Assembly: GCA_963204995.1 (NCBI GenBank) | Contig: CAUJKL010000933.1 | Coordinates: 1 to 56,189 of the forward strand | Length of the DNA: 56,189 bases | Reading direction: 5' to 3' | Source: Planctomycetota bacterium | GTDB taxonomy: Bacteria > Planctomycetota > Planctomycetia > Pirellulales > Pirellulaceae | Shown: piece by piece, positions 8,119 to 40,305 of the stretch | Layout: the number at the start of each line of letters is the position of its first letter | Numbering within the stretch: position 1 is the first letter of the stretch | The notes under the pieces: model-generated | Database searches by the model: none | What the model was told of the DNA's origin: nothing | Seen by the model: only the letters and a program-made list of their open reading frames with translations | Program-made: the position numbers and the translations under genes

Positions 8119-10246
<2,128 letters not shown>

Positions 10247-10335: not shown

Positions 10336-13300
10336 TCAGCGTATCGCGCGCGAACGCCACGTGGGACGTAGCGAACTGGCGAGGAAGACCGCCACGATCA
10401 ACCAGCCGACCGCACTTGGCGCGAGCCACAACCACCACGCCAGCCCGACGACGACGCCGAATAAATGCGGCCAACGGCTGAGGGCGTCTCGCAGTCGCGT
10501 GTACCGTCGCAGCTTCATACCAAACCACGCAGCGACGCAAATCGCGAGGGCCATCACCGCACGTGGGGTGACGTGCGATAAGTCACGATCGTGACGGACG
10601 ATTGTCAGCGTCGTCGCCGCACCGTCGAATGAACAGTAAGTCCACGCATCCTGTTCTCGCGCTCCGCGCTGCCACTGCATGGCGTCGTGTATCGAGATGA
10701 CTGATGCGTGTTGAACTGGCGCGGCGTCGACAGGTATTGCACTTACCGCGTTCAGTCGCTCCTGCCATCGATCGCGCCACCGCTGCAAGTCGTTGGAACG
10801 ATGCTGCGGGACAGGTCCGACACTGTAGTTGAGGACTTCTTCGAAGACGCCAGCACGCAGTTTGCGAGTGCTCGCCACATCAACCACGGCGTGATTCAAC
10901 AGCGGCACCGACCTCACGCGTCCCGACGGATCCCGTACCGACCATAAGGTTGTTCGAGGCTCCAGTTCGCGCAGGCGGGGAGCAGTAAAAGTCAGGCTCT
11001 TCGTGTCCGTCGCCAGCGACGATGCCCGTCCCGCAAACAGTAACGCGATTCGTTGCGGTAGCCGCTCGGCACCGAGTTCGAGCGTCGCGGTGGTGACGTT
11101 GGCAGCCTGGAGGAGAGCGGGCACATCGTCGACGGTGGCGTGCAACAATTCGACTCCGGGCGGTATGATCACGTCACACGTCGTCAAGGCACCGGGTTCG
11201 AGGTCGTAGCTCGCGCTGCCAACGTAGCTCGCATCCGGCTGCCAAGCGACTTCAATATCCGCCAGCAACAGCCGCGAGTCGCCCGCCGATTGGTTTACCT
11301 CACGCACGGTGGCTTGCATGCGCCGCCCACGAACGCGATAGGTCGTCTGCTGCTCATCGCTCTCGGGTTGCTCTAAGCCACGAATGTTCCATTCAATCTC
11401 TTGCTCCGTAGAACGCTTTGGCAACACAAGCAGGCGGTCGATCTGTGATGAATCCAACACTTCGATCAACGGAGCGCTGATGCTCCCATCCGGCGACGTC
11501 TGTAATCGGGCTTGCAGCGTAACGTGAAACTCTTTGTCGATGGCGGCCGCCGGCGTAATGATCAAGTTCGGTTCGGATTGCTCTGGAACTTCTTGCAAAT
11601 CGTAATGCGTGGGTGGATCGAGACGAAATGAGGCCGCCAGTTCTCGTGGCACTCGCAGGCGAATCGAGTCGACAACACCTTGACTTACCTGCACCGAAAG
11701 ATCTGCAGTGACAGACCACTGCGATTCTTCGCTGTGGACGGTGGTGACGAGTTGTCCCGAAAACTTCGCCGGATTCGGTGCGATAGTGAGTACAATGTCG
11801 GGCTTCGCGGAATCTGCTTCGCTAATCAAATCGCCTGTTTCACTCGGCAGGTCAAAGACGCCAACGGCACGCTGCCCAGCGTGCAAGTCCAATTCGGATG
11901 GAGTAAAGTCCGCCACGCGCTGGCCACGGTTCGAGGCGACTTGAACCAAGACTTCCGCGCGACGCCAGACGGTCAAACGGCGTGTACTTGTGGCTGAATC
12001 TTCAAGCCGGATGCTCGTGAACGAAAACTCGCCGCGCGGTGGCAGCGGGATCGAGCCTTGAAGATTGAGGCGGACGGCACCCTGAACTGGCTCCGTCAAA
12101 AAGATCGTCGTCGTACCGTCGGAGCTTTTGGAATATCGGCGAACGAGATCCAAGTCGTCCTGGAACACACTGACACTCTTAACGCTTAGTGCTTTTGGGA
12201 TCGCCAAGACAAGCTGGAACTTGGGGGCATCCTCGATCTGAATCTGCGAGTCGTGTGTGACATCGGCTTGCAGCCGCCCAACTCGAAGTTGCGTGGCATC
12301 GACGTTGCTGAGTCGAGCCGTCTGCGGAACGGCAACAAGCGACCACTCCGACTCGTTCGTGGGCAACTGAATCGCCTCATTCGGCAATTGCAACGTCCCC
12401 CATGTCTCCGCAAAAGTCTGGGGTGGGACGGTTGGCCAGTCACTTTCGTGCGTTAAGGAAGCCGTGATGCCGGGGGACATCGAGAGTGCCAGAATCGGAT
12501 GGGCCACGACTCCCGATGCGATGCGAATCAGCGGACCCTTCACCACTTCGTTCTCGGCAATATCCGTCATCACAAACGACGACTCGACCGTCACACTCTC
12601 GTTTGCCTCGTATGCCTCTTTGAATTGGTAGCGAATTCTACGAAGCGAGTTGTCAGGAGTGAGTGCTTCAACCACTTGAGCTTGCGTGTCGGATACCAAC
12701 AGCCGCAACCTCGGGTCGACTAGCAGTTCGATTTCGGTCAGCGCACCGTTCAGGATCGAGAAGGTAAACCGCGAATCGATCGTCACGACACCAGACTCGG
12801 CACGAATCCAAGTGAGTTGCGAAGTTGTAAACTCCGCAGGTTTTGAATCCCGCGCACCGCCCACGGGCCATTGCACCGCTAATCGATCCGTTGGACCAAG
12901 CTTCGCATCGAGTGATTCATCCGTACGAATGATCGCTCCGAGAGCTGATGTGGGCTCGATCAACGTGGCATCGCGACCGGTGGCGGACAATTGCGAATTA
13001 GGGATTCTAGGGATTCTCAAGTCGAAGCCACTCTTGTCTGCGTCTGGCGCGAGCACCGGGCGAACGGTGAGTCGCAATTCGTGCCGATCAACTATCTCGA
13101 CATTCAAGTCCAACGAATCGCCATTGGCGGACCACTGCGGATAAACGCGTTGCTCGTCGAACGTCGCCTCCAGAAGTTGCAGTTCGTCGCGATGAAACGG
13201 CAGACGAATCGTCGCAGCCCCTGGACTGGGACTGACTAGCTTGAACCCCACTCGCAACTCAGGCAGCATCATCGCCATTGGCATGCTGGGAATGGTGAGC

Positions 13301-16300
13301 GAGTAGGTTGCATCGGTCAGGATGACGCCGAATCGTTGCGTCCCCAGTGTCATTTTGAGCGCTTCAATTGCGTCGAAAAACGTTCGGGAAACGAATACGT
13401 GTGAACCAAACGGTTCGCCGTCTGCACCGACCGGATCGTAAACGCGAAACACATTTGCTGCTGGCGCACTAACACCCATGGGGGCGAGTTCTTGTGCCGA
13501 GGCCCTCTGGTTCGATGCGATGGCGAAGATCACGCCAGCCAGCAAAAGCCCTGCCGACACGGATTCGACTCCGCGCACAATGCGAAACGACCTGGAATCG
13601 TCGCGGTGCTTCGGCGCGGCGGTTGCGGAGACACGACGGCGTAATCCAACCAGTGCGACAGCAGCCAAGAGCCCGAGCAGGATCGATCGAGAAATAAACA
13701 CGAGACTGATGGGAACCAGCAGCGCGACAACGATTGCCGCGACAACCAAGGCGAGCAAGAGTAGACCGCTACGGCGTCCCAACCAGACACCCACGGCAAC
13801 GGCAACAAACAGCGATGCCCAACCGAATGTGCCCAACATCTCAGTACGGTAAAGCACAATCGTCGCATGCGAGTCTGTCGAAGGTATTTGCATGGTCGTC
13901 CAACCGACCAGCGGGGTAAACAATCGGTTCACATCACGATCGCTCCAGGGCCCCGGCGACGTCGCCAAATCGCCAATCCAATCGGTGGCGAGTGCAAAAC
14001 GCGATCTAGGGCCCAACTCGCTGGAAGTGGTCGTGAAGGTGCGATCAGCGACCTCGGTACACGCGCCATAGCTGCCAGCGGCCTGAGTGGCGAATGTCGT
14101 CAAGATCAGCGAGTTGTTATTCACCACGAAGACGAGGTCGCTCAATCGCAACGCACTCATTGCGGATGTTGCGCGAGATGGCATCAAGGAAAGTGGCGTT
14201 ATACCCGCGTCCGACATCGCAGCTCGATCGATGTACAGCGAGAACTCATCCGCGGTGGTGGCATGTGCGGCGTGAGCTTGTGCAATCGCGGCACTCCAAG
14301 TGAGGCTCGGCGAGCCACTGTCGGTGTCGTCCTGCAACTGTGAATCGATGGCCTCGAGGACGCTTTGTACTCGCGCCAGCGTTCGCTGGCGTTGAGATGG
14401 TTGGGCGAGTTTGTCGGGCCAGCTCCATAAGGACGTAATACTCCACGGCCGTTCCGTTCTGCGGACGATGGAGAATCCAAACAGTCGCTGCTCCCAGTCA
14501 GTTCGACTGGTCGGCTGCAGCGGATTGTGAGCAAGATCCCATGGTTCGTCACTGGTTGCCGAACTATAGCCCGGTGGAATCCAGACACGCCACGAACGGT
14601 TCAAGCAGCGAAGGCGAGGTTCCGGCAGCGACATCTCGCAGCGAAAATGATTGCCGAGCGGAGGACCACTCTGACGATATCGCATTTGTACCGTGGGAAA
14701 CCGCCGTGTTGTCGAGAGAGGAATGTGAAGTGCCGTCGTGCTTCGCGAAGTGACAATTCTCTCTCCATCGACATCGACACGTTCCAGTGTAATGTCATCC
14801 GGAAGGTCGACCGTCAGATGCGATATCCCCACGTTTTCGAGCCGAAGCAACATCACGTGTGTCACATCGCCATCGGAATCTACGCGCGACGTAACTTCGG
14901 AGTCCCAGATCCACGCGTCTGGCGGGTCGATCTGTTTACCGTGACGGGCTAACTTCAACGACACGTCCTGGGCCGGCGCGTACCGGTACGTTGCCCTCAG
15001 CGTCGGCAATCTCGCAACATCGGTCTCCGGTGCAGGAATTACCCTCAACCCTTCGTGGTGCAAACTGAATCCGGTTCCGTCGGGTGTGCCAACGTTGACG
15101 GTCCCAACTTGCGTCTCGGCGTCCGGGAGCGACGCCAGGACGATTGTCTCCAGTTGCTCCGGCGGACCAACCGTTGCGACAGCCGACTGCCGAGTAAGCT
15201 TCGCGCGAACCTCGAAGGGAGCGCTTCGCGGAAGCCGTAGGCGTACTTCCCATTCGTTGCCTTCTGCGTCCAGCTTTGTTGCGGTCACCCCCCCTGCCCC
15301 AACACCCACGGCAGACCATTGAATGTTGTCGCTGGGTGGCGGCGAGAACCGAACTCGGAGAGTTCCGATCTGCGTCGAGATTGGTTCGCAACGAAACAAG
15401 AAAGATTGTTTGATCGTCGTCGACTCGACGAGTGCCTCGGCTGTAATTTCGCCGTTGAATCGAGGCGACTGACTTCGTAAGGCGACGCGAACGCGATCGG
15501 CATTCGGCCCATCACGAAACATCAAGGGCGCTCCCTCGGCGGCGAGCAACTCCTTTTCGACCGTTGAGAGTTCCGATTCTGTGACACGAGTCAAGCTCGC
15601 GTCACCCGAGACGTCCAACTGCAGCGGCAGCTCGGCTCGAACGGCCGTCAAACGTGACTTGTCTAATTCGCCACCGAGCGTAATCGGCCGCATTTCGAGT
15701 CCCGTCAGCGTACCCACACTTCGACGGTGGGCCTTGACGATCAACTTGCTGGGCTTCGTCGGCGTAATTGGAGATCGCAGAACAATCTCTCGGCTCAAGC
15801 CCCCAGTTCCGCGTATGACTTCCTCGATTTGCGGTGGATCTGTCTCAATTGAATCCACGATCCAGCCAGCATCGCGCTGCAACGAGATCGAAAATGCCGC
15901 ACCGCTGACCGCAGAGATTCTCGCGATAAACTGGGCGGAGACGATCGACTCTTTGACGGTGATCGTCGTCCCTACCTGAGCGCGGAGGTCTGTTGCTTGA
16001 CGTACGAGAAGCACATCGCAGGTGGCATCGGGACTGAGCAGGGCAAACCGACGCGACTCACCAGTCGTCGGCGAAGGGATTGGTTCGACACCGCGTAGAA
16101 CACTCCCCTGCCAGTTTATTTGGCCGACTCGCAGTGGTTCGACGACGTCAAGCGAAGCACTGCCCTGCCGCCATACAGCGTCGGCGAGTTGCACGCGCGG
16201 AAGTCGCCACAGCTTATTGACGACGACCGGGGCATAGGCGGTAACATTTAGTTCGTGTGAACCGCCAACGAGTGCCGTGGGGAGAGCCAGAATGTACGGT

Positions 16301-17292
16301 GGCGGTTGATCGGATTCGGCGGGACTCGGTACGAAGCCCACGGACTTTCCATTCAATTCAACATTGGCAAGCTGTAATTGAGGGTCGACCTGAAGTGTCA
16401 GCGTTCGCAGCGATCGTCGTTGAACATCGAGATGCAAAGCGGCTTTAAGCTCCAGCCCAGTGACTCCGATACGGTAGTCGTACGTCGGCCGAGCCATGAC
16501 GAGTTGATCGCGATTCGCGTCCTCGGGCGTCGGCAAAATGCGGAGTTCTGTGTCGTTAGTCGCGCCAAGCTCAATCCGCCAACGAGTTGTCTCGGCACTG
16601 TCTCCACTCGTCGAATTAGGATCTTCAACCTGACTTACGATCGCGTCGGCACACTCGAGCGCGAAACCTGGCGGCAAGTCGAGCAAGAGCTCGCTGGCTG
16701 TTGCCTGGGGGAGCAACAAGCGAAATCGACATTCCCGTTCTGCTCCGCTGACTCCGTGCAGCGACCACAGAAACGTCAGCGTATCGGATCGTGAAACGAA
16801 CGCACCGAGCTCACCGGTCGGCAACAGCCCCGCTTCCGCCTCAATGCTAGGATCGCTTTTCCACCGAAACGAATCCGCCGCGAGCCCTAACGGTGACAGT
16901 GGCACATAGGCCGGCTCGGAGTGCGGGTGCTTGATGTCGAGTTCCGCCGAACCGTTGACCAATTGCTGGTTGTCGAATGAGGCAGTGTAGCGAGCACGTA
17001 CGATGTTCGGCTTCGCCAAACCGTACAACGCACGATACTTGGCATTCAGGTCGGCGATCGTTTTTTGAAAAGCCTCGCGTTCGAGAGGCAGCAATTCACC
17101 TCCAATATCATCAATTCTGCCTTCAGGAATTGCGATCCGTTGATACTGTAGAACGGTGGGTGCATTCACCTGTCCATCCACGCGGCGACCACTCAAGACG
17201 CACAAAATCAGCAGGGCCAGCACCTCGACGATTTGCACACTACGTTGCCGGTTGAAAACGCGGGGCTGTCCATGGAAGCCGCTGGACATCAT
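10336..17292 (-). CDS. giant envelope protein (2318 aa), unknown function; two tandem modules separated by an internal TM cluster
   Basis: Uninterrupted 6.96-kb ORF. It has an N-terminal signal anchor, a TM cluster at about aa 1150-1260 (nt ~13480-13850) and C-terminal TM helices. Its ATG overlaps the upstream stop (ATGA at 17289-17292). Confidence 0.8.
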   Translation of the reverse strand: MMSSGFHGQPRVFNRQRSVQIVEVLALLILCVLSGRRVDGQVNAPTVLQYQRIAIPEGRIDDIGGELLPLEREAFQKTIADLNAKYRALYGLAKPNIVRARYTASFDNQQLVNGSAELDIKHPHSEPAYVPLSPLGLAADSFRWKSDPSIEAEAGLLPTGELGAFVSRSDTLTFLWSLHGVSGAERECRFRLLLPQATASELLLDLPPGFALECADAIVSQVEDPNSTSGDSAETTRWRIELGATNDTELRILPTPEDANRDQLVMARPTYDYRIGVTGLELKAALHLDVQRRSLRTLTLQVDPQLQLANVELNGKSVGFVPSPAESDQPPPYILALPTALVGGSHELNVTAYAPVVVNKLWRLPRVQLADAVWRQGSASLDVVEPLRVGQINWQGSVLRGVEPIPSPTTGESRRFALLSPDATCDVLLVRQATDLRAQVGTTITVKESIVSAQFIARISAVSGAAFSISLQRDAGWIVDSIETDPPQIEEVIRGTGGLSREIVLRSPITPTKPSKLIVKAHRRSVGTLTGLEMRPITLGGELDKSRLTAVRAELPLQLDVSGDASLTRVTESELSTVEKELLAAEGAPLMFRDGPNADRVRVALRSQSPRFNGEITAEALVESTTIKQSFLFRCEPISTQIGTLRVRFSPPPSDNIQWSAVGVGAGGVTATKLDAEGNEWEVRLRLPRSAPFEVRAKLTRQSAVATVGPPEQLETIVLASLPDAETQVGTVNVGTPDGTGFSLHHEGLRVIPAPETDVARLPTLRATYRYAPAQDVSLKLARHGKQIDPPDAWIWDSEVTSRVDSDGDVTHVMLLRLENVGISHLTVDLPDDITLERVDVDGERIVTSRSTTALHIPLSTTRRFPTVQMRYRQSGPPLGNHFRCEMSLPEPRLRCLNRSWRVWIPPGYSSATSDEPWDLAHNPLQPTSRTDWEQRLFGFSIVRRTERPWSITSLWSWPDKLAQPSQRQRTLARVQSVLEAIDSQLQDDTDSGSPSLTWSAAIAQAHAAHATTADEFSLYIDRAAMSDAGITPLSLMPSRATSAMSALRLSDLVFVVNNNSLILTTFATQAAGSYGACTEVADRTFTTTSSELGPRSRFALATDWIGDLATSPGPWSDRDVNRLFTPLVGWTTMQIPSTDSHATIVLYRTEMLGTFGWASLFVAVAVGVWLGRRSGLLLLALVVAAIVVALLVPISLVFISRSILLGLLAAVALVGLRRRVSATAAPKHRDDSRSFRIVRGVESVSAGLLLAGVIFAIASNQRASAQELAPMGVSAPAANVFRVYDPVGADGEPFGSHVFVSRTFFDAIEALKMTLGTQRFGVILTDATYSLTIPSMPMAMMLPELRVGFKLVSPSPGAATIRLPFHRDELQLLEATFDEQRVYPQWSANGDSLDLNVEIVDRHELRLTVRPVLAPDADKSGFDLRIPRIPNSQLSATGRDATLIEPTSALGAIIRTDESLDAKLGPTDRLAVQWPVGGARDSKPAEFTTSQLTWIRAESGVVTIDSRFTFSILNGALTEIELLVDPRLRLLVSDTQAQVVEALTPDNSLRRIRYQFKEAYEANESVTVESSFVMTDIAENEVVKGPLIRIASGVVAHPILALSMSPGITASLTHESDWPTVPPQTFAETWGTLQLPNEAIQLPTNESEWSLVAVPQTARLSNVDATQLRVGRLQADVTHDSQIQIEDAPKFQLVLAIPKALSVKSVSVFQDDLDLVRRYSKSSDGTTTIFLTEPVQGAVRLNLQGSIPLPPRGEFSFTSIRLEDSATSTRRLTVWRRAEVLVQVASNRGQRVADFTPSELDLHAGQRAVGVFDLPSETGDLISEADSAKPDIVLTIAPNPAKFSGQLVTTVHSEESQWSVTADLSVQVSQGVVDSIRLRVPRELAASFRLDPPTHYDLQEVPEQSEPNLIITPAAAIDKEFHVTLQARLQTSPDGSISAPLIEVLDSSQIDRLLVLPKRSTEQEIEWNIRGLEQPESDEQQTTYRVRGRRMQATVREVNQSAGDSRLLLADIEVAWQPDASYVGSASYDLEPGALTTCDVIIPPGVELLHATVDDVPALLQAANVTTATLELGAERLPQRIALLFAGRASSLATDTKSLTFTAPRLRELEPRTTLWSVRDPSGRVRSVPLLNHAVVDVASTRKLRAGVFEEVLNYSVGPVPQHRSNDLQRWRDRWQERLNAVSAIPVDAAPVQHASVISIHDAMQWQRGAREQDAWTYCSFDGAATTLTIVRHDRDLSHVTPRAVMALAICVAAWFGMKLRRYTRLRDALSRWPHLFGVVVGLAWWLWLAPSAVGWLIVAVFLASSLRPTWRSRAIR

Positions 17293-20200
17293 GACTTACC
17301 TTCGACTTGAGCCACTTGCAAATGGGCGGGTGCCGTTGCCGTAGTCGCATGCGAGCTTCCTTCTGGAACGCTAACTGAAAGGACGTCGCTGGCTTGTGAT
17401 TCAGGACGAATATAGGCGCTACCTCGGCGATTCATTGGTGCCAGCGGTGTCAGCGGAGTTCTTCCGACGAGTCGCTGCATGGCACATGCGACGATTGCCA
17501 TACCGAGTCCGATCGCTCCCGCTTGCCCGAACAAGACGGCCTGTTCGGGGTAGGTCACCGCGACTCCGAACAGCATGACTCCAACCATGAAAAATACGCC
17601 GGGCTGTCGAAGCGTCGGCAAATAGATGAAGGGAAGTACGACTACCAACGCTACTCCCGACGAAATCAGCAACAACATCAGGCGACTGACTTTTACAAAC
17701 ACGACCGAATCGACAGAACCCGTCGAACTGAACAAGTAACGATTGGTGTCCGGCGAAACCGCGTCCTGCGTTGACGCTCCAACGAGTTCCTCGAGCGATT
17801 GCTGCTCTAGACGCCCACGTCGCCCCCAGTACCACTGGTCCCGTTGCCAAACGAGTTCCGAGGTCAACGTCGCTGGCGTCCACGCGAGATGCTCATTCCT
17901 CGGCAGCACGATCTGCCAATACACTTGCGTGGCACGTTCCGCCGCAGAAATGGACGGCAGGGAAACACCGAACCGCGAACCGCGAGCGAGCGAGCTGAAA
18001 TATCCCATTTCAAACGCCACCTCGCGTCCGACTTGCTCATCCGCAAGCGTGACGGTCAGCGAACGGTCGCCGTGATCAACGATCGCAACCGGAGGCTCTC
18101 CATCAACCAGCACTTGCGGTTTCTCGGTCCGCGCGTCTGGAGGCAGTTGAACGTAAACAGTTGATTGATCGCTACGCAACTGAAAACAAACCCGATCGTG
18201 GCGGTCGGTCGGCGTCAACCAGGACTGAATCCAAACTCGTTGGATCGATGTGTTGCCGTTATTGCGACTCTCGACGATCGAAGTTTGAACGATGGCCGCA
18301 GAAGCGACTCCAGCCGACCGAACTTGCAACTCGTGCGTGCCGTTCGGCGGCAGTGCGGCGTCAGCAGGTAAGGTCCAGGTCTCGTCCGCCAGGGTGAAGA
18401 CGGTTTCCGAGTCGGATCGAAGTGTCAACAAATTCGTAACATTCTCTGTCGCCTCCGTACCTGCCGGTTGCACTAACGGAATCTGCAATCCGGCGTTGTT
18501 CAGTAGGTCCGCGACCGGAACCTCGAACGCCACATCGAACTGAAGTTCACCGGTGACAGGCGTTGGCAAACTAATCATCGCGTCAGACGTTAGAGACGCC
18601 ACACCGCTCCCCGAGTCGGCAGTCGCCGTTTCTAAAGCGGTCTCAGGTGGCGCGATCAGGCGAAAGGGAAGCTCTTGTTCGCCGCTGGTAATTCGCAGTG
18701 TTCCCGCGGCCACGACGCTTGTCGGAATGGCAATCGGTAATTCGGCGAGCGGCGCATAAGTCACGGTGGCGAGGAACGTCTGGCGAACCACCAACATGTC
18801 GCCCGCCTTCGTTGCGTCAGACGTTACGACCACCGTCGTTTCTCGCGGGCGAATACGCCGAGTAGCGACGAAATGAGCTGCCTCGGTGACTTTCGTCGAC
18901 AGTTCCTCGCGGAAAAACAGGGGCGGAGCGATCCGCTTGGGAAACGCCGATGTGCCCGTTCGTGTCTCCTGAATTAACCACTTCATTGCAGCGGGTTCGG
19001 GCGTCAAATCAACATTGTCGCTGGCCAACACGACGAGCGTCGCGTTTGGAAGTAACTCCGAGTCGGTGGGGCGCGGCAGATCGAAGCTCACTTCGGCTAC
19101 GTCTTGTTCGATTTCCCGATGGGCGCGAACATTGAGATCAAGCGCTGTCGCACCGGCACTGATTGGAAGCAATAAGCTCCCTTTGCCATCATCACTAAAG
19201 GGTTTGGCGAGCGAATCTTGCGAGGTGACGGCGTCAATCGTCCAACCGGACATATTGAAACTGAGCGCGTCGGACTTTGCATTATTCGTCGAGTAGGTAA
19301 TTCTGGCGTCCAGCTGCAGCCGGTCTTCGGAAACATCGACGACGTAGGTCGTATCAAACGCGACGGGCGTTTGCTTGGGGCGTAAATCGAGTTTTAGTGC
19401 GTACGGTTGTCGGTCGTACAGAAATCTCGCCGCCACCGGTTGCTGTCGTGCAGGATCTTCCGGCACTGCGACACGTTGGACGAATTGACCGGGATACCAA
19501 CTCGGCAACCAACTGCCATCCAGCATCACATCGACCGACCCCCACTCGCGAACCGCGTTTTGGACGCTAAATCCCGCCAGCTGAACGGTGCGAAGTTGCG
19601 TCTCAACTTTGATCGGCAGATACGAAGCCTCCAGGTGTACTTCGATAAGACCGCGGGTTGGGCCAGCGAGTCGTTTGATCGAAACCTGTTGCGGAGCACT
19701 CTCGTTGTCAGATGGCAGTTTTTCGATCTGAAAGTCAGGGTCACTTTGCGACGTCAATTCCATCCCGACGGGTAATCGGACGGTAAAGGAATCAATCGCT
19801 TCAGCCCGGCTGCGCACCTTCAGCTGAGCTTCGCTCCAGATATGGTTTCCGTGTACATGGACCGTCGTGGCACTAGTCGCTTCCAAAGCGTGCGGCACGA
19901 CCTGATTATGTTGCTGCCACGCCAAGTCCAATTCGCCGCCGCCATTTTCAACGGTAATGACCGATGTCAGACCTTCCGTTTTCACCGAAACGTTGCTCCG
20001 CCCACTCGGGCTAGACGCCTCGATCATCCCGCCATCTACAGTTAACTTCATCGTTGTGGCCATGTTCGGCAACATGAGACTGAACGATTCTTGCGTTCCA
20101 ATCCGTCGAACGGGCACTTTGATGGGTACACGAATCGTGTGAGTGCTGTCGGGTTTCGCACGCAACCAGCACACATAGGACTCCGCGTCGCGTGTCACAT

Positions 20201-20729
20201 AGATCTCGCCTTCTTCGTCATGCTCGATGGCCCCGACGTCGAGAAAGGAGCCGTCGAGCCGCAATGGGATGGCGGTCCACGTTTCTCCCTCGACGCTTGC
20301 ACGGGGCGTCAGACGAATTCGAAACGTGACTTTCAAGCCCGCAACTTGCAGCTCCGTATCAACTCGTCCGTCGAGTTCAATCCTGCCGGTGAAAATCACC
20401 TGCGGCAGGGCTGCTTGCTGTTCTTTAAGGCGATTCTGGAGTGCTAGTAACTCGAGGAACTTTTCCAGCGTAAATCCGGGAACGGCTACCAAGTTCCCAT
20501 TCTCATCTTCGAGTCGAAACTTCAGGTCTGATCCACGAATCAGATCGCCCGATTCAGCACGAGGCGACGCTGGCGTTTCACGGGGGACCGGCTGGGCGCA
20601 AACAGAGGCAGCCGCCAACAAGACGCTGGCGAAGAGCATTGACAAAAGTAGGACGAGACGAGGTTGCACAGTTAGGCACTTCATCCGGGCGCGAAGAAAA
20701 CATCCCAAGTCCAGCAGAGAAGAATGCAT
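17289..20729 (-). CDS. giant envelope protein (1146 aa), unknown function
   Basis: Uninterrupted 3.4-kb ORF. Signal peptide MKCLTVQPRLVLLLSMLFASVLLAAASVCAQ (alternative start ATG 20684) and C-terminal TM helices. No motif recognised. Confidence 0.8.
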   Translation of the reverse strand: MHSSLLDLGCFLRARMKCLTVQPRLVLLLSMLFASVLLAAASVCAQPVPRETPASPRAESGDLIRGSDLKFRLEDENGNLVAVPGFTLEKFLELLALQNRLKEQQAALPQVIFTGRIELDGRVDTELQVAGLKVTFRIRLTPRASVEGETWTAIPLRLDGSFLDVGAIEHDEEGEIYVTRDAESYVCWLRAKPDSTHTIRVPIKVPVRRIGTQESFSLMLPNMATTMKLTVDGGMIEASSPSGRSNVSVKTEGLTSVITVENGGGELDLAWQQHNQVVPHALEATSATTVHVHGNHIWSEAQLKVRSRAEAIDSFTVRLPVGMELTSQSDPDFQIEKLPSDNESAPQQVSIKRLAGPTRGLIEVHLEASYLPIKVETQLRTVQLAGFSVQNAVREWGSVDVMLDGSWLPSWYPGQFVQRVAVPEDPARQQPVAARFLYDRQPYALKLDLRPKQTPVAFDTTYVVDVSEDRLQLDARITYSTNNAKSDALSFNMSGWTIDAVTSQDSLAKPFSDDGKGSLLLPISAGATALDLNVRAHREIEQDVAEVSFDLPRPTDSELLPNATLVVLASDNVDLTPEPAAMKWLIQETRTGTSAFPKRIAPPLFFREELSTKVTEAAHFVATRRIRPRETTVVVTSDATKAGDMLVVRQTFLATVTYAPLAELPIAIPTSVVAAGTLRITSGEQELPFRLIAPPETALETATADSGSGVASLTSDAMISLPTPVTGELQFDVAFEVPVADLLNNAGLQIPLVQPAGTEATENVTNLLTLRSDSETVFTLADETWTLPADAALPPNGTHELQVRSAGVASAAIVQTSIVESRNNGNTSIQRVWIQSWLTPTDRHDRVCFQLRSDQSTVYVQLPPDARTEKPQVLVDGEPPVAIVDHGDRSLTVTLADEQVGREVAFEMGYFSSLARGSRFGVSLPSISAAERATQVYWQIVLPRNEHLAWTPATLTSELVWQRDQWYWGRRGRLEQQSLEELVGASTQDAVSPDTNRYLFSSTGSVDSVVFVKVSRLMLLLISSGVALVVVLPFIYLPTLRQPGVFFMVGVMLFGVAVTYPEQAVLFGQAGAIGLGMAIVACAMQRLVGRTPLTPLAPMNRRGSAYIRPESQASDVLSVSVPEGSSHATTATAPAHLQVAQVEGKS

Positions 20730-20791: not shown

Positions 20792-21604
20792 TCAACAAGA
20801 CTTGGTTCCAGCAGACGTGCAGCCAGTCCCCCGATTCAGTGTGACAATGAGTTCCGCGTGCAACGCCGCTGTCGCTGCCGCCGCGAACTGTGGACGCAAT
20901 AGCTCGAAAGGCTCGCCTTCAACCCCGGTCAGGAAACCACCAGCCTCTTGGACCAACAGTACTCCGGCGGCAACATCCCAGACTTTCACGCTCGTCGCCC
21001 AATACGCGTCGAGACGCCCCGCCGCGAGATAGGCGAGATTCAACGCAGCCGAGCCTAAGCGACGTAATGCTTGGCACTCAACGAGAACATTCAAAAAACG
21101 GTCGATCTCTGGCGAATCGCGAGACACTCCGGTCGAGAGGCTCGCCACCACCAGGGCCGTTCGCAGCGAATCGCAAGCACTCACCGATATCCGTTCGCCA
21201 TTCAAAAACGCCCCTTCTCCTCGCACCGCCGAATAACACTCATTCGCGATTGGGTCGTAGACAACGCCTGCCTGAACTTGGCCACAGTGTTCGAGAGCTA
21301 CGGAGACGGAGAAGGCGGGCAGCCGATGAACATAATTCACCGTTCCATCGAGTGGATCGACGATCCAACGAAAATCGGACTTGCGATCTTCGTGATTTCC
21401 CGTTTCATCTTCTTCGCCGAGGAAGTCGTGATCGGGAAACGCTTCGTGAATGATCTCGTAAATAGCGTCCTGAGACGCAAGGTCGGCCTCACTTACCAAG
21501 TCCTTGGGTGCTTTTTCGCGGGGATGAATGCGGCCCTGCCAATCGAGTAGCACTTGTCCCCCTTTGCGGGCAGACCGTTCACAAACCGTGATATAGTCAC
21601 GCAT
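20792..21604 (-). CDS. suhB: inositol monophosphatase family protein
   Basis: Motifs FLGEE, WIVDPLDGTVNY and WDVAAG, typical of the IMPase/SuhB family. Confidence 0.9.
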   Translation of the reverse strand: MRDYITVCERSARKGGQVLLDWQGRIHPREKAPKDLVSEADLASQDAIYEIIHEAFPDHDFLGEEDETGNHEDRKSDFRWIVDPLDGTVNYVHRLPAFSVSVALEHCGQVQAGVVYDPIANECYSAVRGEGAFLNGERISVSACDSLRTALVVASLSTGVSRDSPEIDRFLNVLVECQALRRLGSAALNLAYLAAGRLDAYWATSVKVWDVAAGVLLVQEAGGFLTGVEGEPFELLRPQFAAAATAALHAELIVTLNRGTGCTSAGTKSC

Positions 21605-21920: not shown

Positions 21921-22583
21921 ATGTGGCAACTCGACGGAAGCAAGGCACGTCTCGAAACATCACGCCTAACTTGCGAATTGGATCTCGCTTGGCCAGGGCG
22001 TGGATTGACGAAATTGGCGGGCAGTCTCGTGGCGGGCAGTCTCGATCCATCGAATGCGTTTTCCGCAGAGGGCGCGGCGATCATGCAATTGACGCTGCCT
22101 GGTAATGCGACGCTGCTCACCGATGCTTATGTTCGTGGCAACGATCTCGTCGCGACGTATGACGAGTCGGCAGATCTCCCCTGTCGCACGCAAGTATACT
22201 GGCGCATCGAGAACGAGTCGGATTTTTTAGGTATCCAGTTGATCGTGTCCGTGCAGACATCGCTGCTCGATGCGGCTCCCAGCCTTACGGTCGCCAGCCA
22301 AGTTGCTGGTTCAGTTCGCTTGGTCGAAGAAGGCGTCGCCCTCATGTCGCTGCTAGATCCGAACGTTTCTTACGTCGAAGTCACGGACGGATCGAATGTT
22401 GAATCCACAATTATTCAGAATAACTCACAGATCACGAACAAGTTGTTTCCGGGTTCGTTGGAAAAGGGCGTCATTCGACGAGCGAGAATTCTCGGCTGTT
22501 TTTTATCCGCGTCTTCTGCGGAACAAACAGCGAGAACACTTCACGAGCGCTTCGTCCGCTCCGCGCCACCGCTCACGACTTAA
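21921..22583 (+). CDS. hypothetical protein
   Basis: 220-aa ORF with coding-like composition and no recognisable motif; converges on the DUF1501 gene with a 9-nt gap. Confidence 0.5.
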   Translation: MWQLDGSKARLETSRLTCELDLAWPGRGLTKLAGSLVAGSLDPSNAFSAEGAAIMQLTLPGNATLLTDAYVRGNDLVATYDESADLPCRTQVYWRIENESDFLGIQLIVSVQTSLLDAAPSLTVASQVAGSVRLVEEGVALMSLLDPNVSYVEVTDGSNVESTIIQNNSQITNKLFPGSLEKGVIRRARILGCFLSASSAEQTARTLHERFVRSAPPLTT

Positions 22584-22592: not shown

Positions 22593-24071
22593 TCAGGCAA
22601 GTAGTGGCTGAACCACTTTCCCGCCCTGATCGGTCAGCCGGACTTCCAAGCCTTTGAATCTGTGCGAGAAGCGCAAGTGATCAAAGCCGAACAGGTGCAG
22701 TATCGTGGCGTGAAAGTCGTTGATGTGAACCGGATCTTTCACGGGCGACCAGCCGATCTCGTCGGTTTCGCCGTAGACCTGCCCGCCCTTAATTCCACCG
22801 CCAGCCAGCAGCACGCTAAAGGCAGCTGGATGGTGGTCGCGGCCCACGACCGCAGCCTGATTACCAGCGCGGTTCTCCCACAGCGGCGTCCTGCCGAATT
22901 CACCTGCAAACACGATCAGCGTCGAGTCGAGCAATCCACGTTGCTTGAGATCCTTGATCAAGGCCGCGATCGGCTGATCGGCCATACCGGCGTTGTATCC
23001 CAGCTCTTCATCGATGTTGCTATGATGATCCCACGAAGCATGCACGAGCGTCACGAATCGAACGCCGCGCTCAATCATCCGTCGGGCGAGGACACAGTTT
23101 GTCGCGAATTGCTGATAGACATGGGGACCGCCGCCGCGAAAGTCGAACTTCGCGGGTTCTTTGCGAGTCACGCCATACGCATCGAGCGTCGCGGGAGTCT
23201 CGTCGGACAGATCGATTAACTCGGGTGCCGCAGCCTGCATTCGAAACGCGAGTTCGTAAGACGCGATGCGGCTGGCGATCTGTGGATCTTGAACCAGGTC
23301 GAAGCGTCGGCGGTTGAGCTTGCTGAGCGTCTCCAATCCCTGTTGCTGCACGTCGCGGTCGATTCCAGGCGGATTGTTCAAGTTCAAAACGGGTTCGCCC
23401 TCGCTCCGAAACACGACGCCTTCATAGGTCGAAGGCAAGAACCCGCTCGACCAATTGGAAACGCCACCGCTGCTGCCTCGCCCCGCAGTTAGCACCACAT
23501 AGCCCGGCAAATCATCCGATTCGCTGCCAAGCCCATAGTTCAACCACGAACCCATGCTGGGACGCCCGAATCGCGGCACACCGCTGCACAACATCAGCTG
23601 GGCCGGGTGATGGTTGAAGGCGTCGGTATGCATGGACCGCACCAAACACAAGTCATCGGCACAAGACCCCAGGTGAGGCAGAAAGTCCGACAGTTCCATC
23701 CCGCACTCGCCGTGCTTCGTGAATTCTCTGGCGCTGCCCGCGAGAACGGCGGTTTCTTTCTTCACAAAGGCAAAGCGAACATTCTCGATCAACGAGGCCG
23801 GTGGCTTCTCGCCATGCAACTCGCGGAGCTTGGGTTTGGGATCGAACAAGTCGAGGTGGCTGGGCGCTCCTGCCGGCAAGATGAAGATGCACTGCTTGGC
23901 CTTGGCCGGGAGCGGTGACGGCTTGGGAGCCAGCGGGTTGACGGACGACTCGTCGCCCAGCAACCGATCTTGCTGCAACAGCGACGCCAGTGCCGCAGCC
24001 CCGAGGCCCGAAGCACTGGACGTCAAAAAATGCCGGCGTGTTTGAGCCCACATCGCTTCGTCGAATCGCAT
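22593..24071 (-). CDS. DUF1501 (sulfatase-fold) protein with Tat signal
   Basis: Twin-arginine leader TRRHFLTSSASGLGAAALASL; the length and its position downstream of a PSD1 gene match the common planctomycete PSD1/DUF1501 pair. Confidence 0.88.
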   Translation of the reverse strand: MRFDEAMWAQTRRHFLTSSASGLGAAALASLLQQDRLLGDESSVNPLAPKPSPLPAKAKQCIFILPAGAPSHLDLFDPKPKLRELHGEKPPASLIENVRFAFVKKETAVLAGSAREFTKHGECGMELSDFLPHLGSCADDLCLVRSMHTDAFNHHPAQLMLCSGVPRFGRPSMGSWLNYGLGSESDDLPGYVVLTAGRGSSGGVSNWSSGFLPSTYEGVVFRSEGEPVLNLNNPPGIDRDVQQQGLETLSKLNRRRFDLVQDPQIASRIASYELAFRMQAAAPELIDLSDETPATLDAYGVTRKEPAKFDFRGGGPHVYQQFATNCVLARRMIERGVRFVTLVHASWDHHSNIDEELGYNAGMADQPIAALIKDLKQRGLLDSTLIVFAGEFGRTPLWENRAGNQAAVVGRDHHPAAFSVLLAGGGIKGGQVYGETDEIGWSPVKDPVHINDFHATILHLFGFDHLRFSHRFKGLEVRLTDQGGKVVQPLLA

Positions 24072-24090
24072 CTGTTAGTTCCTCGAAAAT

Positions 24091-24171
24091 GTAGGCCGGA
24101 CCAAGGCTTTGCGCAGCTCCGGCATCCGCTCAACAACTGCCGGAACCGCGCAAAGCCTTGGTCCGGCCTAC
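24091..24171. repeat. perfect 24-bp inverted repeat plus inner 7-bp stem between the PSD1 and DUF1501 genes
   Basis: GTAGGCCGGACCAAGGCTTTGCGC (24091-24114) pairs with GCGCAAAGCCTTGGTCCGGCCTAC (24148-24171). Inner pair: TCCGGCA / TGCCGGA. Confidence 0.9.
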
Positions 24172-24174
24172 TTA

Positions 24175-27100: not shown

Positions 27101-27285
27101 AGCCCTGCTTCTTGCTCTTCCGCTCCGTGGCACGAGTAGCAAGTTTTACGAAGGATCGGTTGAATGTCCGCGACAAAGTCGACTTGGCGATCGACCGCGT
27201 CGGGCAGCGGCTGGGCGTCATCCGCTTGTAGAGCAGCGTGCGTAACGAGTATGAACACGAACGCGACTGGCAACACCGATCGCAT
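24175..27285 (-). CDS. PSCyt1/PSCyt2(DUF1549)/PSD1(DUF1553) planctomycete cytochrome-c-domain protein
   Basis: Signal peptide, haem motif CYSCHG near the N-terminus, and CAQCHSHKYDP, the DUF1549 hallmark; 1036 aa. Confidence 0.9.
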   Translation of the reverse strand: MRSVLPVAFVFILVTHAALQADDAQPLPDAVDRQVDFVADIQPILRKTCYSCHGAEEQEAGLRLDVKARALDGGDGGKSIIPGDSAKSRLITLVAGLDKDTGIMPPEGEGTPLTSEQIAVLRAWIDQGADWPDSADVASGGSAHWSFRPIAHPSLPTPSDLAWIKTPIDAFVLKRLEAEGIRPSPEASRETLMRRVYLDLLGLPPSPQELDAFLQDSNADAYERMVDRVLSSPHYGERWGRHWLDLARYADSDGYEKDRARPYAWRYRNWVIDALNADLPYDQFSIEQIAGDMLPDATLEQRVASGFHRNTLHNTEGGADQEEDRVKKTVDRTNTVGEIWLGLTVGCAQCHSHKYDPLTQREYYQLYAFFNDIDESDIDAPLPADQERIRLAKDAYDAAHATLIAKVKDYEANQLARAQAKWETTALDKAVVWQTIEPKAVTSKHGATFQRQDDSSWLATGKNEVSDVYTVEAIIDAERVSAVRLEVLPDKSLVKEGPGRADNGNFVLTTFSVTASPTNGEETPKAIELTAAKADFSQGDWQVEKAINDEPTDGWAVSPEFGKRHVAVFEAKEAVGFAGGTKLTFVLDQTYNRGNSHNLGRFRLSFTSGNLPATLEGMPGDVAKALAKPATERNADEQRQVAAYFRTVDVELARLNKIVADHAKQAPAASDVKAQAVVQVSQPRQAKIHIRGDFLNQGEPVIALTPSVLPGLAADEAKLDRLDFARWLFAADNPLTARVTVNRVWQRIFGRGIVTTVDDFGTQGEKPSHPDLLDWLASEFQRQGWSLKQLQRLIVNSATYRQSAEFRPELAERDPYNALLARQQRRRVEAETIRDIALAASGLLDSRIGGPSVRPPQPEEYSSLTYANSAKWQVSKGGDAYRRGLYTFFQRTSPYPMLMTFDSPDSTECCTQRSLSNTPLQALTLWNDPAFYECAQAFGSRVVTEVSPSSDKTQTMGERAQYAFMLCLSRRPTDGELEDVIALRLAQQQRAEADLEATKQIVGKHVVPDGSSPEELAAWIVVTRTLINLDEFITRE

Positions 27286-27972: not shown

Positions 27973-28037
27973 GGGGGTATTGTAACAGCACGAAGGCAGC
28001 CCCACGATGTTAGTTGCATTTTGCGAGGAGATCCGGC

Positions 28038-35927: not shown

Positions 35928-35938
35928 GGAACAGAATC

Positions 35939-37597: not shown

Positions 37598-37696
37598 TGC
37601 CGAAACGGATTTTACATATCCTGCCTGCTGGCGGAGATGTTATGCTGATGCAAGACGAGATCGACAGGGGATGGATCAAGTTTAGGAGCCAATGTA

Positions 37697-39922: not shown

Positions 39923-39985
39923 AGTTGCTAGCCCGCCACGAGAGCCCGCTCGGCGCGCGATCACGAACTTGACCAGCACGCACAG

Positions 39986-40016
39986 CTCCATTCGTTCATC
40001 GAATGGAGTTTTTTTT
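39986..40016 (+). terminator. rho-independent terminator
   Basis: CTCCATTCG-ttcat-CGAATGGAG followed by TTTTTTTT. Confidence 0.9.
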
Positions 40017-40038
40017 ATTGCACGTCTCAGAAGTGATC

Positions 40039-40067
40039 TTGACCGTGTTTGCACGGGCGAGTATTTA
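40039..40067 (+). promoter_or_regulatory. candidate promoter of the secretin gene
   Basis: TTGACC (40039-44), 17 nt, then TATTTA (40062-67), directly after the terminator. This implies a ~230-nt leader. Confidence 0.35.
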
Positions 40068-40305
40068 TCCCGCTCTCGTCTACCAAAAAGATACTCCGGT
40101 CAGCGGTTGTACACACTCGTGAAATTGTCTCTTCGAGTGGGCGTGACCACTGGTTTCTCGTCACCTACTAAGCAAAGTGCGAATTCTCGCAAGGTCATGG
40201 AAAACTGGTCGGACACCTCGCTGATTCACCGTCTAACCCGGACGATGGCAAGACCGGGCGACGGAGACACTAGGATCACAAGCTTCTCGAAGAAGGAGAA
40301 TCGCG

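What the first reader, a model, noticed from the sequence alone, without database searches (positions are those of the whole stretch)
10336..20729. Two translationally coupled giant envelope proteins that look like three paralogous ~1100-aa modules
Seen in sequence: a 1146-aa ORF and a 2318-aa ORF overlap by ATGA (17289-17292), lie directly downstream of suhB on the same strand, and together span 10.4 kb with no motif I recognise. Each of three segments has the same layout. The segments are the 1146-aa protein, aa 1 to ~1240 of the 2318-aa protein, and aa ~1245 to 2318. The layout is a signal-like hydrophobic N-terminus, ~1000 beta-rich residues, a short beta-strand-like run (VVFVKVSR / IVLYRTE / LTIVRHDR) and then a TM helix bundle. 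About 190-230 aa into each module a similar motif recurs. It reads FSLMLPNMATTMKLTVDG (nt ~20041-20095), FRLLLPQATASELLLDLP (~16672-16725) and FDLRIPRIPNSQLSATG (~12975-13030). Inference: a triplicated, membrane-anchored surface or periplasmic scaffold family specific to this lineage.
Basis: partly seen in the sequence, partly recalled or inferred. Interest (0 to 1): 0.75.

Follow-up and report, generated by a model that had tools for sequence, protein, structure and literature searches.

The report
Three-paralog planctomycete inner-membrane envelope proteins
Two overlapping giant genes encode three anciently duplicated, membrane-anchored periplasmic proteins that belong to a large uncharacterised planctomycete family, are always kept together in the same arrangement, and are probably essential in a model planctomycete.

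Summary
ORF A (17289-20729, 1146 aa) and ORF BC (10336-17292, 2318 aa) overlap by ATGA and follow an inositol-monophosphatase-family gene. Pairwise BLASTP finds no similarity among the three segments.

AlphaFold models of A and C show the same plan: an N-terminal signal-like helix, about 900 all-beta residues, a beta-hairpin and three C-terminal transmembrane helices.

No Pfam, NCBIfam, PADLOC or PDB sequence match exists. The best fold matches are ribophorin I/Ost1, integrin-alpha legs and M1-aminopeptidase N-domains, all with low TM-scores.

The family is not lineage-restricted. It has 5213 representative clusters, and named members are all Planctomycetota. In 43 of 44 loci A is followed by a B-type gene, fused to C wherever enough sequence is present. 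The stop/start overlap is kept in 38 of 42 loci.

The internal hydrophobic segment before C keeps an AxA|Q signal-peptidase-like site.

Published TraDIS data for Planctopirus limnophila list a gene trio of matching order and sizes as essential. That link rests on synteny only.

Best reading: an equimolar inner-membrane-anchored periplasmic hetero-complex of unknown, probably structural, function.

The parts
20792..21604 (-). Inositol-monophosphatase-family (suhB-like) gene, 270 aa, 62 nt upstream of A. Probable first gene of the operon.
   Evidence: Pfam Inositol_P E 3e-66. The scores fall below the NCBIfam equivalog cut-offs for SuhB, HisN and CysQ. The DPLDGT and WDVAAG motifs are present. 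A homologue lies directly upstream of A on the same strand in 29 of 51 loci with enough upstream DNA. A promoter-like site lies at 21718-21689(-).
17289..20729 (-). Gene A, module A, 1146-aa ORF. The likely true start is Met16 at nt 20684.
   Evidence: There are 20 close homologues and 5213 representative clusters. AlphaFold mean pLDDT is 74.6.
20595..20684 (-). Signal peptide of A (aa 16-45), ending in VCA|Q.
   Evidence: Hydropathy peak at aa 25-43. The h-region followed by A-x-A|Q is conserved across 37 diverse homologues.
20031..20084 (-). Motif FSLMLPNMATTMKLTVDG of module A.
   Evidence: P221 is invariant in 37 sequences.
17463..17684 (-). Three C-terminal TM helices of A (aa 1016-1089), preceded by a beta-hairpin.
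   Evidence: R1041, P1061, Q1069, A1070 and G1074 are conserved.
17292..17462 (-). Disordered cytoplasmic tail of A (aa 1090-1146), with a conserved S/T-rich motif ...ATTATAPAHLQV...
   Evidence: pLDDT < 50. T1129 and P1134 are nearly invariant. The consensus across 37 sequences is STxTAP.
17289..17292 (-). ATGA stop/start overlap between A and BC, indicating translational coupling.
   Evidence: Among 42 distinct loci, ATGA occurs in 36, GTGA in 1 and TAATG in 1.
10336..17292 (-). Gene BC, 2318 aa, a fusion of modules B and C.
   Evidence: A B-type gene follows A in 43 of 44 loci, and it is fused to C wherever enough sequence is present.
13618..17292 (-). Module B (aa 1-1225): a signal-like N-terminus, a beta-rich ectodomain, an extra ~230-aa juxtamembrane insert, and three TM helices (aa ~1153-1217, nt 13642-13836).
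16672..16725 (-). Motif FRLLLPQATASELLLDLP of module B.
13495..13566 (-). Internal signal-peptide-like segment (BC aa 1243-1266), preceded by an Arg-rich cytoplasmic loop and ending in ASA|QE. Candidate signal-peptidase cleavage site that would separate B from C.
   Evidence: An h-region followed by a small-x-small site and then Q/E/D is seen in all 33 BC homologues inspected, under a permissive rule. It has the same form as A's signal peptide.
10339..13494 (-). Module C (BC aa 1267-2318): a beta-rich ectodomain, juxtamembrane helices, a beta-hairpin, and three TM helices (aa ~2246-2317, nt 10342-10557).
   Evidence: AlphaFold mean pLDDT 76.8, pTM 0.44. hhalign.
12976..13026 (-). Motif FDLRIPRIPNSQLSATG of module C.
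21921..22583 (+). Conserved 220-aa cytoplasmic protein of unknown function ('hyp220'), divergently transcribed from the suhB-like gene. Possible accessory gene.
   Evidence: Present in this position in 22 of 42 loci. It has an invariant LEKGVI.R.R motif and a PPLTT C-terminus. No Pfam or PDB match.

Best explanation
The locus encodes the three subunits of one cytoplasmic-membrane-anchored periplasmic complex, conserved across Planctomycetota.

Each subunit (A, B, C) is exported by an N-terminal Sec-type signal sequence. Each carries about 900 residues of tandem beta-sandwich domains in the periplasm and is held in the inner membrane by three C-terminal helices.

The three are ancient paralogues, made in a fixed 1:1:1 ratio. 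A is translationally coupled to BC through the ATGA overlap, and B is fused to C. The retained internal signal peptide with an AxA|Q site most likely lets signal peptidase I cut the fusion into separate B and C chains. In that case B would keep the cleaved-off signal segment as a fourth helix.

The assembled pseudo-trimer would have nine or ten TM helices plus three long beta-sandwich arms. I propose it acts as a structural envelope element: a scaffold or tether reaching from the cytoplasmic membrane into the unusually wide planctomycete periplasm, rather than an enzyme. It is probably required for growth.

Shown: the gene structure, the paralogy, the fold class, the topology signals, and the conservation of the arrangement.
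Inferred: complex formation, cleavage, the scaffold role, and essentiality.
For: Paralogy:
- hhalign gives E 5.5e-28, 7.8e-19 and 1e-25, all colinear, with negative reversed controls.
- hmmsearch of the B profile hits module C of L002 directly, E 3.5e-5 to 5e-8.

Shared architecture:
- AlphaFold models of A and C both show signal helix, beta, beta, one helix, all-beta, beta-hairpin, three TM helices.
- Both models return the same Foldseek hits and no catalytic fold.

Topology:
- A's signal peptide AxA|Q is conserved in 37 sequences.
- K/R-rich loops lie on the predicted cytoplasmic side. Three TM helices at the end of B are exactly what is needed for the next segment to export C.

Fixed stoichiometry and non-redundancy:
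- A B-type gene follows A in 43 of 44 loci. B and C are in one ORF wherever enough sequence is present, apart from one frameshifted long-read contig.
- The stop/start overlap is kept in 38 of 42 loci, down to about 25% identity.
- Every locus keeps all three paralogue types, each recognised by its own profile.

Cleavage:
- The junction motif is conserved in 33 of 33 homologues.

Importance:
- The family is large and old and lies in a housekeeping neighbourhood.
- In P. limnophila TraDIS (PMC10632474 supplementary data), an inositol monophosphatase (Plim_1820, 268 aa, essential) is followed by a hypothetical protein (Plim_1821, ~1292 aa, essential). Then comes a hypothetical protein (Plim_1822, 2356 aa, same strand) that is essential except for its last ~530 codons.
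Against: - No direct evidence exists for physical association of A, B and C. No multimer prediction could be run.
- pTM is low (0.36 and 0.44), so the shape of the ectodomain (extended or compact) is unknown.
- My signal-peptidase rule is permissive and SignalP was not available. The junction segment could simply be a fourth TM helix.
- The TM regions of the three modules are only weakly similar (E 6e-5, 1e-3, and not significant for A-C).
- The P. limnophila link rests on gene order and sizes only. I could not obtain those sequences.
- TraDIS essentiality of the upstream genes can reflect polarity.
- In Plim_1822 the last ~530 codons tolerate insertions. Those codons would include the C-terminal anchor of C, which a strict three-anchor complex would not predict.
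- The frequent operon link to a cytoplasmic IMPase-family enzyme and to hyp220 is not explained by a purely structural role.
Confidence: 0.5

Rival explanations
1. Periplasm-spanning conduit or assembly platform. The three arms form part of an envelope-biogenesis or transport machine, for example delivery of lipid, LPS, lipoprotein or exported proteins from the inner membrane. This would be analogous in role to accessory subunits that sit beside a translocon, as ribophorin I does beside Sec61/OST.
For: - The best fold matches of both modelled modules are ribophorin I/Ost1, E 3e-8 to 4e-10 over ~430 columns.
- Polar residues are conserved in the TM helices: R1041, P1061, Q1069.
- Essentiality is likely.
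- Known essential inner-membrane-anchored periplasmic proteins are mostly envelope-biogenesis factors (general knowledge).
Against: - TM-scores are low (0.24-0.33) and rmsd is 12-26 A.
- There is no sequence-level match to Ribophorin_I or to any transport family.
- No beta-taco or groove-type hits (AsmA, TamB, Lpt) appear among the top 50 Foldseek matches.
- No transporter, ATPase or Sec gene is conserved next to the pair.
Confidence: 0.17
2. Three separate sensors or receptors. Each module acts alone as a periplasmic ligand-binding receptor that signals through its short cytoplasmic segments, for example by Ser/Thr phosphorylation of the conserved STxTAP tail of A. The cytoplasmic IMPase-family enzyme and hyp220 would be the downstream partners.
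For: - A has a conserved cytoplasmic tail motif.
- The pair is linked in the operon to two cytoplasmic proteins.
- A distant single-module relative (P0204, L010) sits after an ECF sigma factor and a PEGA protein.
Against: - No kinase, HAMP, PAS, GGDEF or anti-sigma domain is present.
- C has essentially no cytoplasmic tail.
- The strict 1:1:1 genetic coupling fits a complex better than independent receptors.
- The IMPase link is absent in about 40% of loci.
Confidence: 0.12
3. Periplasmic protease trap or shield of the alpha-2-macroglobulin type, or a BatD-like aerotolerance protein.
For: Bacterial alpha-2-macroglobulin, CD109 and complement C5 appear among the weaker Foldseek hits. The general layout of a signal peptide, beta-sandwiches and a membrane anchor resembles BatD and YfhM.
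Against: - Foldseek probability is only 0.2-0.4 and TM-score <= 0.08.
- There is no CxEQ thioester motif and no lipobox.
- There is no Pfam A2M or BatD hit in the window proteins or in 55 family members.
- No MoxR, DUF58, BatA or Pbp1C neighbours are present.
Confidence: 0.03
4. Cell-surface adhesin or S-layer-like coat, the first reader's 'surface' alternative.
For: The proteins have long tandem beta-sandwich arrays. Pilus adhesins (PitA), RTX adhesin repeats, ClfA and Als3 appear among the weak fold hits.
Against: - Alpha-helical multi-TM C-terminal anchors with positive-inside loops are inner-membrane features in a diderm.
- There is no outer-membrane beta-barrel, secretion-system signal, sortase motif or repeat-type adhesin domain.
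- No internal sequence repeats are found.
Confidence: 0.04

Closest known systems
Ribophorin I / Ost1 (non-catalytic subunit of eukaryotic oligosaccharyltransferase; PDB 6s7o_E, 6s7t_E, 6ezn_A, 7oci_A, 6c26_1)
   Same: This is the top Foldseek match for both independently modelled modules (E 3e-8 to 4e-10, ~430 aligned columns, probability 1.0). It is also a signal-peptide-exported tandem beta-sandwich ectodomain held by C-terminal helical TM anchoring, and a non-enzymatic subunit of a membrane complex.
   Different: - TM-scores are only 0.24-0.33 and rmsd is 12-26 A.
- There is no sequence-level similarity: no Ribophorin_I Pfam hit in 57 proteins scanned, and no PDB profile hit.
- The module is twice as long, has three TM helices rather than one, and occurs as three paralogues.
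- No STT3 gene lies nearby.
- A 2016 survey found no convincing prokaryotic homologues of the non-catalytic OST subunits (PMC4973528). The resemblance here does not establish one.
N-terminal beta-sandwich domain of M1 aminopeptidases / LTA4 hydrolase (ERAP1, APN, LTA4H) and the ITIH1 N-terminal region
   Same: A ~220-270-residue domain of each module superposes with probability 1.0. For LTA4H the rmsd is about 5 A.
   Different: Only the non-catalytic domain matches. No peptidase (HEXXH) domain, vWA domain or corresponding Pfam hit is present.
Integrin alpha-subunit ectodomain legs (thigh and calf domains)
   Same: Both are long strings of Ig-like beta-sandwiches ending in a membrane anchor. 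Foldseek E is 1e-8 to 1e-5 over 750-900 columns.
   Different: TM-scores are about 0.1 and rmsd is 20-30 A. The match reflects generic beta-sandwich similarity only. There is no beta-propeller or FG-GAP signature in A or BC.
BatD / bacterial alpha-2-macroglobulin (YfhM)-type inner-membrane-anchored periplasmic beta-sandwich proteins
   Same: The general concept is shared: a Sec-exported multi-beta-sandwich periplasmic protein tethered to the inner membrane of a diderm.
   Different: There is no family signature, thioester, lipid anchor or typical partner gene. Neither family is known as a coupled or fused paralogue triplet.
Plim_1820-1822 of Planctopirus limnophila (TraDIS, PMC10632474)
   Same: The gene order, strand and sizes match: IMPase 268 aa, hypothetical ~1292 aa, hypothetical 2356 aa. 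Both large genes are annotated as hypothetical and Planctomycetes-restricted.
   Different: Homology was not verified by sequence. The paper lists the genes as essential or domain-essential but does not discuss them.

Membership tests
BatD (Pfam PF13584, aerotolerance operon) | Match to the BatD profile | tested here: not met
   No hit at E <= 1 for A or BC. No hit at E <= 0.1 in 37 A-family and 18 BC-family members.
BatD (Pfam PF13584, aerotolerance operon) | Operon context with MoxR ATPase, DUF58 and BatA/BatB vWA proteins | tested here: not met
   None of these occur among the neighbours in the window or in related loci.
Bacterial alpha-2-macroglobulin | CxEQ thioester motif and A2M/MG-domain profile matches | tested here: not met
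   No C.EQ motif in A or BC. No Pfam A2M hits. Foldseek probability is 0.2-0.4 and TM-score <= 0.08.
Bacterial alpha-2-macroglobulin | N-terminal lipoprotein anchor (lipobox) | tested here: not met
   No lipobox in the first 60 residues. Anchoring is by C-terminal helices instead.
Ribophorin I / Ost1 (Pfam PF04597) | Sequence-profile match to Ribophorin_I | tested here: not met
   No Pfam hit. A profile search of PDB sequences returns no OST chain.
Ribophorin I / Ost1 (Pfam PF04597) | Fold: two luminal beta-sandwich domains followed by a TM helix | tested here: inconclusive
   This is the top Foldseek hit for both models (E down to 3.7e-10), but TM-scores are 0.24-0.33 and rmsd is 12-26 A.
Ribophorin I / Ost1 (Pfam PF04597) | Association with an STT3-type oligosaccharyltransferase | tested here: not met
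   No STT3/PglB-like gene is among the conserved neighbours or in the annotated window genes. Physical association is not testable here.
AsmA/TamB-like periplasm-spanning lipid-transfer proteins | N-terminal anchor plus a continuous beta-taco groove; AsmA/DUF490 profile match | tested here: not met
   No Pfam hit. No such structures appear in the top 50 Foldseek matches. Anchoring is C-terminal.
Repeat-type surface adhesins (Big, cadherin, FG-GAP, RTX) | Recognisable tandem sequence repeats or adhesin domain profiles, with a secretion or outer-membrane anchoring signal | tested here: not met
   No off-diagonal self-alignment in the A, B or C profiles. No adhesin Pfam domains. The TM anchors are helical.
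The A / B-C family itself (unnamed) | Full-length colinear profile match, A followed by a fused B-C gene, and stop/start overlap | tested here: met

The most novel reading that the evidence does not exclude
A, B and C form an essential hetero-trimeric envelope machine that exists only in Planctomycetota. It would be a core part of their still unknown way of building, spacing or dividing the cell envelope: wide periplasm, FtsZ-independent budding, dispensable peptidoglycan genes. Its ectodomain unit would be a genuine bacterial relative of ribophorin I/Ost1, an OST subunit for which no prokaryotic homologue is known.
Probability: 0.15. Interest if true: 0.9.

Novelty: new variant of a known kind. 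Interest (0 to 1): 0.62.

Why it matters
Planctomycetes divide without FtsZ. They tolerate loss of most peptidoglycan and divisome genes and have an enlarged periplasm. The machinery behind these traits is unknown.

The P. limnophila essential-gene study counts 108 essential, phylum-specific proteins of unknown function (PMC10632474). This locus gives a concrete anatomy to what are probably two of them:
- three ancient paralogues
- Sec-exported
- anchored in the inner membrane
- genetically locked into equal dosage
- with a likely polyprotein-type cleavage by signal peptidase, which is unusual in bacteria

That turns two 'hypothetical proteins' into a testable candidate for an envelope complex. 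It also defines a large family (more than 5000 representative clusters at 50% identity) that has no Pfam or NCBIfam model. The ribophorin-I-like fold is a secondary lead on the origin of OST accessory subunits.

Tried and rejected
- Pairwise BLASTP among the three segments gave nothing significant, so family profiles were needed.
- Pfam, NCBIfam and PADLOC scans of A and BC gave nothing. The only hits were weak ones in the TM regions (DUF5693 E 0.44, MASE7 E 0.041), judged spurious. Scanning 55 family members individually also gave nothing consistent.
- A PDB sequence-profile search returned only RodA at E 9.7.
- Self-comparison of each module profile for internal repeats found none.
- The third homologue search, with a 37-sequence alignment, did not reach beyond the first two searches and gave no named cultured-strain member.
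- The listing of cluster members on 10 representatives returned only 'hypothetical protein', with one Pirellulales MAG.
The accepted scan found only 4 GTDB species because its patterns were clade-specific.
- Literature searches on crateriform structures and periplasm, on ribophorin in Planctomycetes, and on Plim_1821/1822 found no description of these proteins.
- The promoter/terminator scan gave fewer sites than the shuffled controls and was used only as a weak hint.
- hyp220 had no Pfam or PDB match.
- I could not retrieve P. limnophila sequences with the available tools, so that link stays at the level of synteny and gene size.

Full report
**1. What is there**

The window carries two ORFs on the minus strand. 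A is 17289-20729 (1146 aa) and BC is 10336-17292 (2318 aa). The stop codon of A and the start codon of BC share ATGA at 17289-17292.

Sixty-two nucleotides upstream on the same strand lies a 270-aa Inositol_P-family gene (20792-21604; Pfam E 3e-66). It scores below the NCBIfam equivalog cut-offs for SuhB, HisN and CysQ. Downstream, BC is convergent with a riboflavin-synthase gene and is followed by enolase.

A and BC have no hit in Pfam, NCBIfam or PADLOC, apart from sub-threshold noise in their TM regions. Homologue alignments indicate that A really starts at Met16, nt 20684.

**2. Are the three segments paralogous?**

Pairwise BLASTP finds nothing; the best hit is E 0.03. I collected 20 homologues of A and 19 of BC, aligned them, and split the BC alignment at residue 1225. 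hhalign gave single, colinear alignments:
- A-B: E 5.5e-28, 698 columns
- A-C: E 7.8e-19, 799 columns
- B-C: E 1e-25, 800 columns

Six control comparisons with a reversed template gave E 0.056-0.49 and scores <= 30, against 175-256 for the real comparisons. Independently, a plain HMM of module B hits module C of a distant homologue at E 3.5e-5 to 5e-8.

Their coordinates are 20031-20084, 16672-16725 and 12976-13026.

The C-terminal TM regions are only weakly related: A-B E 6e-5, B-C E 1e-3, A-C not significant. No internal repeats are detectable within a module. The window contains no further paralogues.

**3. Architecture**

AlphaFold models were made with family alignments. A has mean pLDDT 74.6 and pTM 0.36. 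C has mean pLDDT 76.8 and pTM 0.44. Both models show the same order of elements:
- an N-terminal hydrophobic helix
- two short strands
- one ~15-residue helix
- about 900 residues that are almost entirely beta
- three TM helices

A ends in a disordered 57-residue tail with a conserved STxTAP-like motif. B has an extra ~230-residue juxtamembrane insert.

The N-terminus of A is a canonical signal peptide ending in A-x-A|Q, and this is conserved in 37 diverse homologues. The N-termini of close B homologues end similarly, as xxA|QE.

At the end of B there are three hydrophobic helices, then an Arg-rich loop, then a fourth hydrophobic segment ending in ASA|QE (BC aa 1243-1266). With three helices the chain returns to the cytoplasm, so the fourth segment can export module C. 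The topology is therefore self-consistent and obeys the positive-inside rule.

A small-x-small site followed by Q, E or D at the end of this internal segment is present in all 33 BC homologues inspected. My rule is permissive, so I treat this as suggestive evidence. It suggests that the ancestral signal peptide of C, including its signal-peptidase site, has been kept, and that BC may be cut into B and C.

**4. Fold comparison**

Foldseek against the PDB gives the same picture for both models:
- Ribophorin I/Ost1 of eukaryotic OST comes first (E 3e-8 to 4e-10, ~430 columns).
- Integrin-alpha ectodomains come next.
- The non-catalytic N-terminal domain of M1 aminopeptidases and LTA4H follows (rmsd about 5 A over ~220 columns for LTA4H), along with ITIH1.
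- Alpha-2-macroglobulin and complement proteins appear with low probability.

TM-scores are low throughout (<= 0.33), as expected for flexible multi-domain chains. No catalytic fold appears. There is no thioester motif and no lipobox. I read this as tandem beta-sandwich domains that include a ribophorin-I/M1-N-like unit. It is not evidence of membership in any of these families.

**5. Distribution and conserved arrangement**

An exhaustive profile search of 1.84 billion representatives found 5213 clusters at E <= 1e-3 and 2075 at E <= 1e-30. Most of the top 150 are ~1100-aa proteins matched over nearly the full profile. Sampled members share a median of 31% identity. Every named member is a Planctomycetota MAG, and flanking genes include planctomycete-specific families. 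The family is therefore large and old, not specific to this lineage.

I obtained 76 related loci. They show the following:
- A B-type gene follows A in 43 of the 44 loci with at least 1.5 kb downstream. B and C lie in one ORF of about 1950-2950 aa wherever enough sequence is present. The one clear exception is a frameshifted long-read contig.
- In L009, the remaining locus, the downstream 2755-aa gene is more divergent.
- The A-stop/BC-start overlap is ATGA in 36, GTGA in 1 and TAATG in 1 of 42 distinct loci.
- An IMPase-family gene lies directly upstream on the same strand in 29 of 51 loci.
- A 220-250-aa protein with no database match (window 21921-22583) lies divergently upstream of the IMPase gene in 22 of 42 loci.
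- No other neighbour is conserved.
- A distant single-module relative (P0204) occurs alone, after an ECF sigma factor and a PEGA protein.

**6. A link to experimental data**

The supplementary tables of the P. limnophila TraDIS study (PMC10632474) list three consecutive genes:
- Plim_1820, 'inositol monophosphatase', essential
- Plim_1821, hypothetical, essential
- Plim_1822, hypothetical, 2373000-2380070, listed as strand 1, 2356 aa, 'unclear' then reclassified as essential by the sliding-window criterion

The insertion indices imply 268 aa for Plim_1820 and about 1292 aa for Plim_1821. In the stored (truncated) insertion list for Plim_1822, 11 sites fall in the first ~5.25 kb and the sites become dense from position 2378479 onward. 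The gene has 181 insertions in total, so the last ~530 codons appear dispensable.

Gene order and sizes match the suhB-like/A/BC cluster. I could not fetch the P. limnophila sequences, so orthology is inferred at roughly 80% confidence, not shown. Polarity could contribute to the apparent essentiality of the upstream genes. The paper does not discuss these genes, and no other paper in the library mentions them.

**7. Interpretation**

Four features point to obligate subunits of one complex made in equal amounts:
- Three ancient paralogues are each retained everywhere.
- They are never separated.
- One junction is fixed by translational coupling.
- The other junction is fixed by gene fusion.

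The topology signals place the complex in the cytoplasmic membrane, with the beta-sandwich arms in the periplasm. The absence of any enzymatic fold favours a structural role or a platform role.

I therefore propose an inner-membrane-anchored hetero-trimeric periplasmic scaffold or tether (confidence about 0.5 for the complex, lower for the specific role). The main rival is a conduit or assembly-platform role in envelope biogenesis. Receptor, alpha-2-macroglobulin/BatD-like and surface-adhesin readings are less likely or already contradicted; see the rival explanations and membership tests.

Three observations remain unexplained:
- why a cytoplasmic IMPase-family enzyme and hyp220 so often accompany the pair
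- what the conserved tail of A binds
- why the distal half of module C appears dispensable in the TraDIS data

**8. Novelty and score**

The proteins are in public databases only as 'hypothetical protein'. There is no family model and no literature. At sequence level this is a new family. At the level of kind, it is a new variant of the inner-membrane-tethered, multi-beta-sandwich periplasmic proteins. It is distinguished by the locked three-paralogue design and the probable internal signal-peptidase processing.

Interest is 0.62. The anatomy is solid, and the likely essentiality in a phylum whose envelope and division biology is unresolved makes it worth an experiment. The function is still inferred.

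Noticed in passing
window 21921-22583 (+): A 220-aa cytoplasmic protein with no Pfam or PDB match. It has an invariant LEKGVI.R.R motif and a PPLTT C-terminus. It is divergently transcribed from the suhB-like gene and conserved in that position in 22 of 42 related loci.
   Followed up: partly
window 20792-21604 (-): The IMPase-family gene upstream of A scores below all NCBIfam equivalog cut-offs (SuhB, HisN, CysQ), so its substrate is open. P. limnophila has two such paralogues and both are reported essential (PMC10632474 supplementary data).
   Followed up: partly
window 17292-17462 (-), A aa 1090-1146: The disordered cytoplasmic tail of A carries a conserved Ser/Thr-rich motif, ATTATAPAHLQV (family consensus STxTAP). 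It could be a phosphorylation or docking site.
   Followed up: no
L010 10001-13156 (P0204): A distant single-module relative (1051 aa), colinear with all three profiles at low score. It sits alone, downstream of an ECF sigma factor and an 869-aa PEGA-domain protein and near flagellar export genes. It may represent the pre-triplication state.
   Followed up: partly
window 33447-44112 (+): A type IV pilus/T2SS-like cluster. It comprises an 826-aa PilM-domain fusion, two ORFs without Pfam hits (552 and 741 aa), and an unusually long 1268-aa secretin.
   Followed up: no
window 22593-27285 (-): A DUF1501 gene next to a PSCyt1/PSCyt2/PSD1 gene, which is the typical planctomycete gene pair. The same pair also lies near Plim_1820-1822 in P. 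limnophila (Plim_1826/1827). It is syntenic with A/BC only in close relatives and a few other loci.
   Followed up: partly
window 8119-9771 (-): The enolase ORF is 550 aa, but the enolase domains start at residue ~130. The longest-ORF start is probably about 125 codons too far upstream.
   Followed up: no
window 51568-56174 (-): An SbcC/Rad50-like AAA_27 ATPase (1212 aa), overlapping at its upstream end a metallophosphoesterase ORF (341 aa). The pair looks SbcCD-like.
   Followed up: no
window 28014-29000 (+): A PD-(D/E)XK family transposase-like gene (PDDEXK_2, E 2.5e-46).
   Followed up: no
L001 13288-17923: In this 1.4-Mb long-read contig the BC gene is broken into 1209-aa and ~229-371-aa pieces that still match B and C in order. 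This is most likely assembly frameshifts rather than a genuinely split gene.
   Followed up: partly
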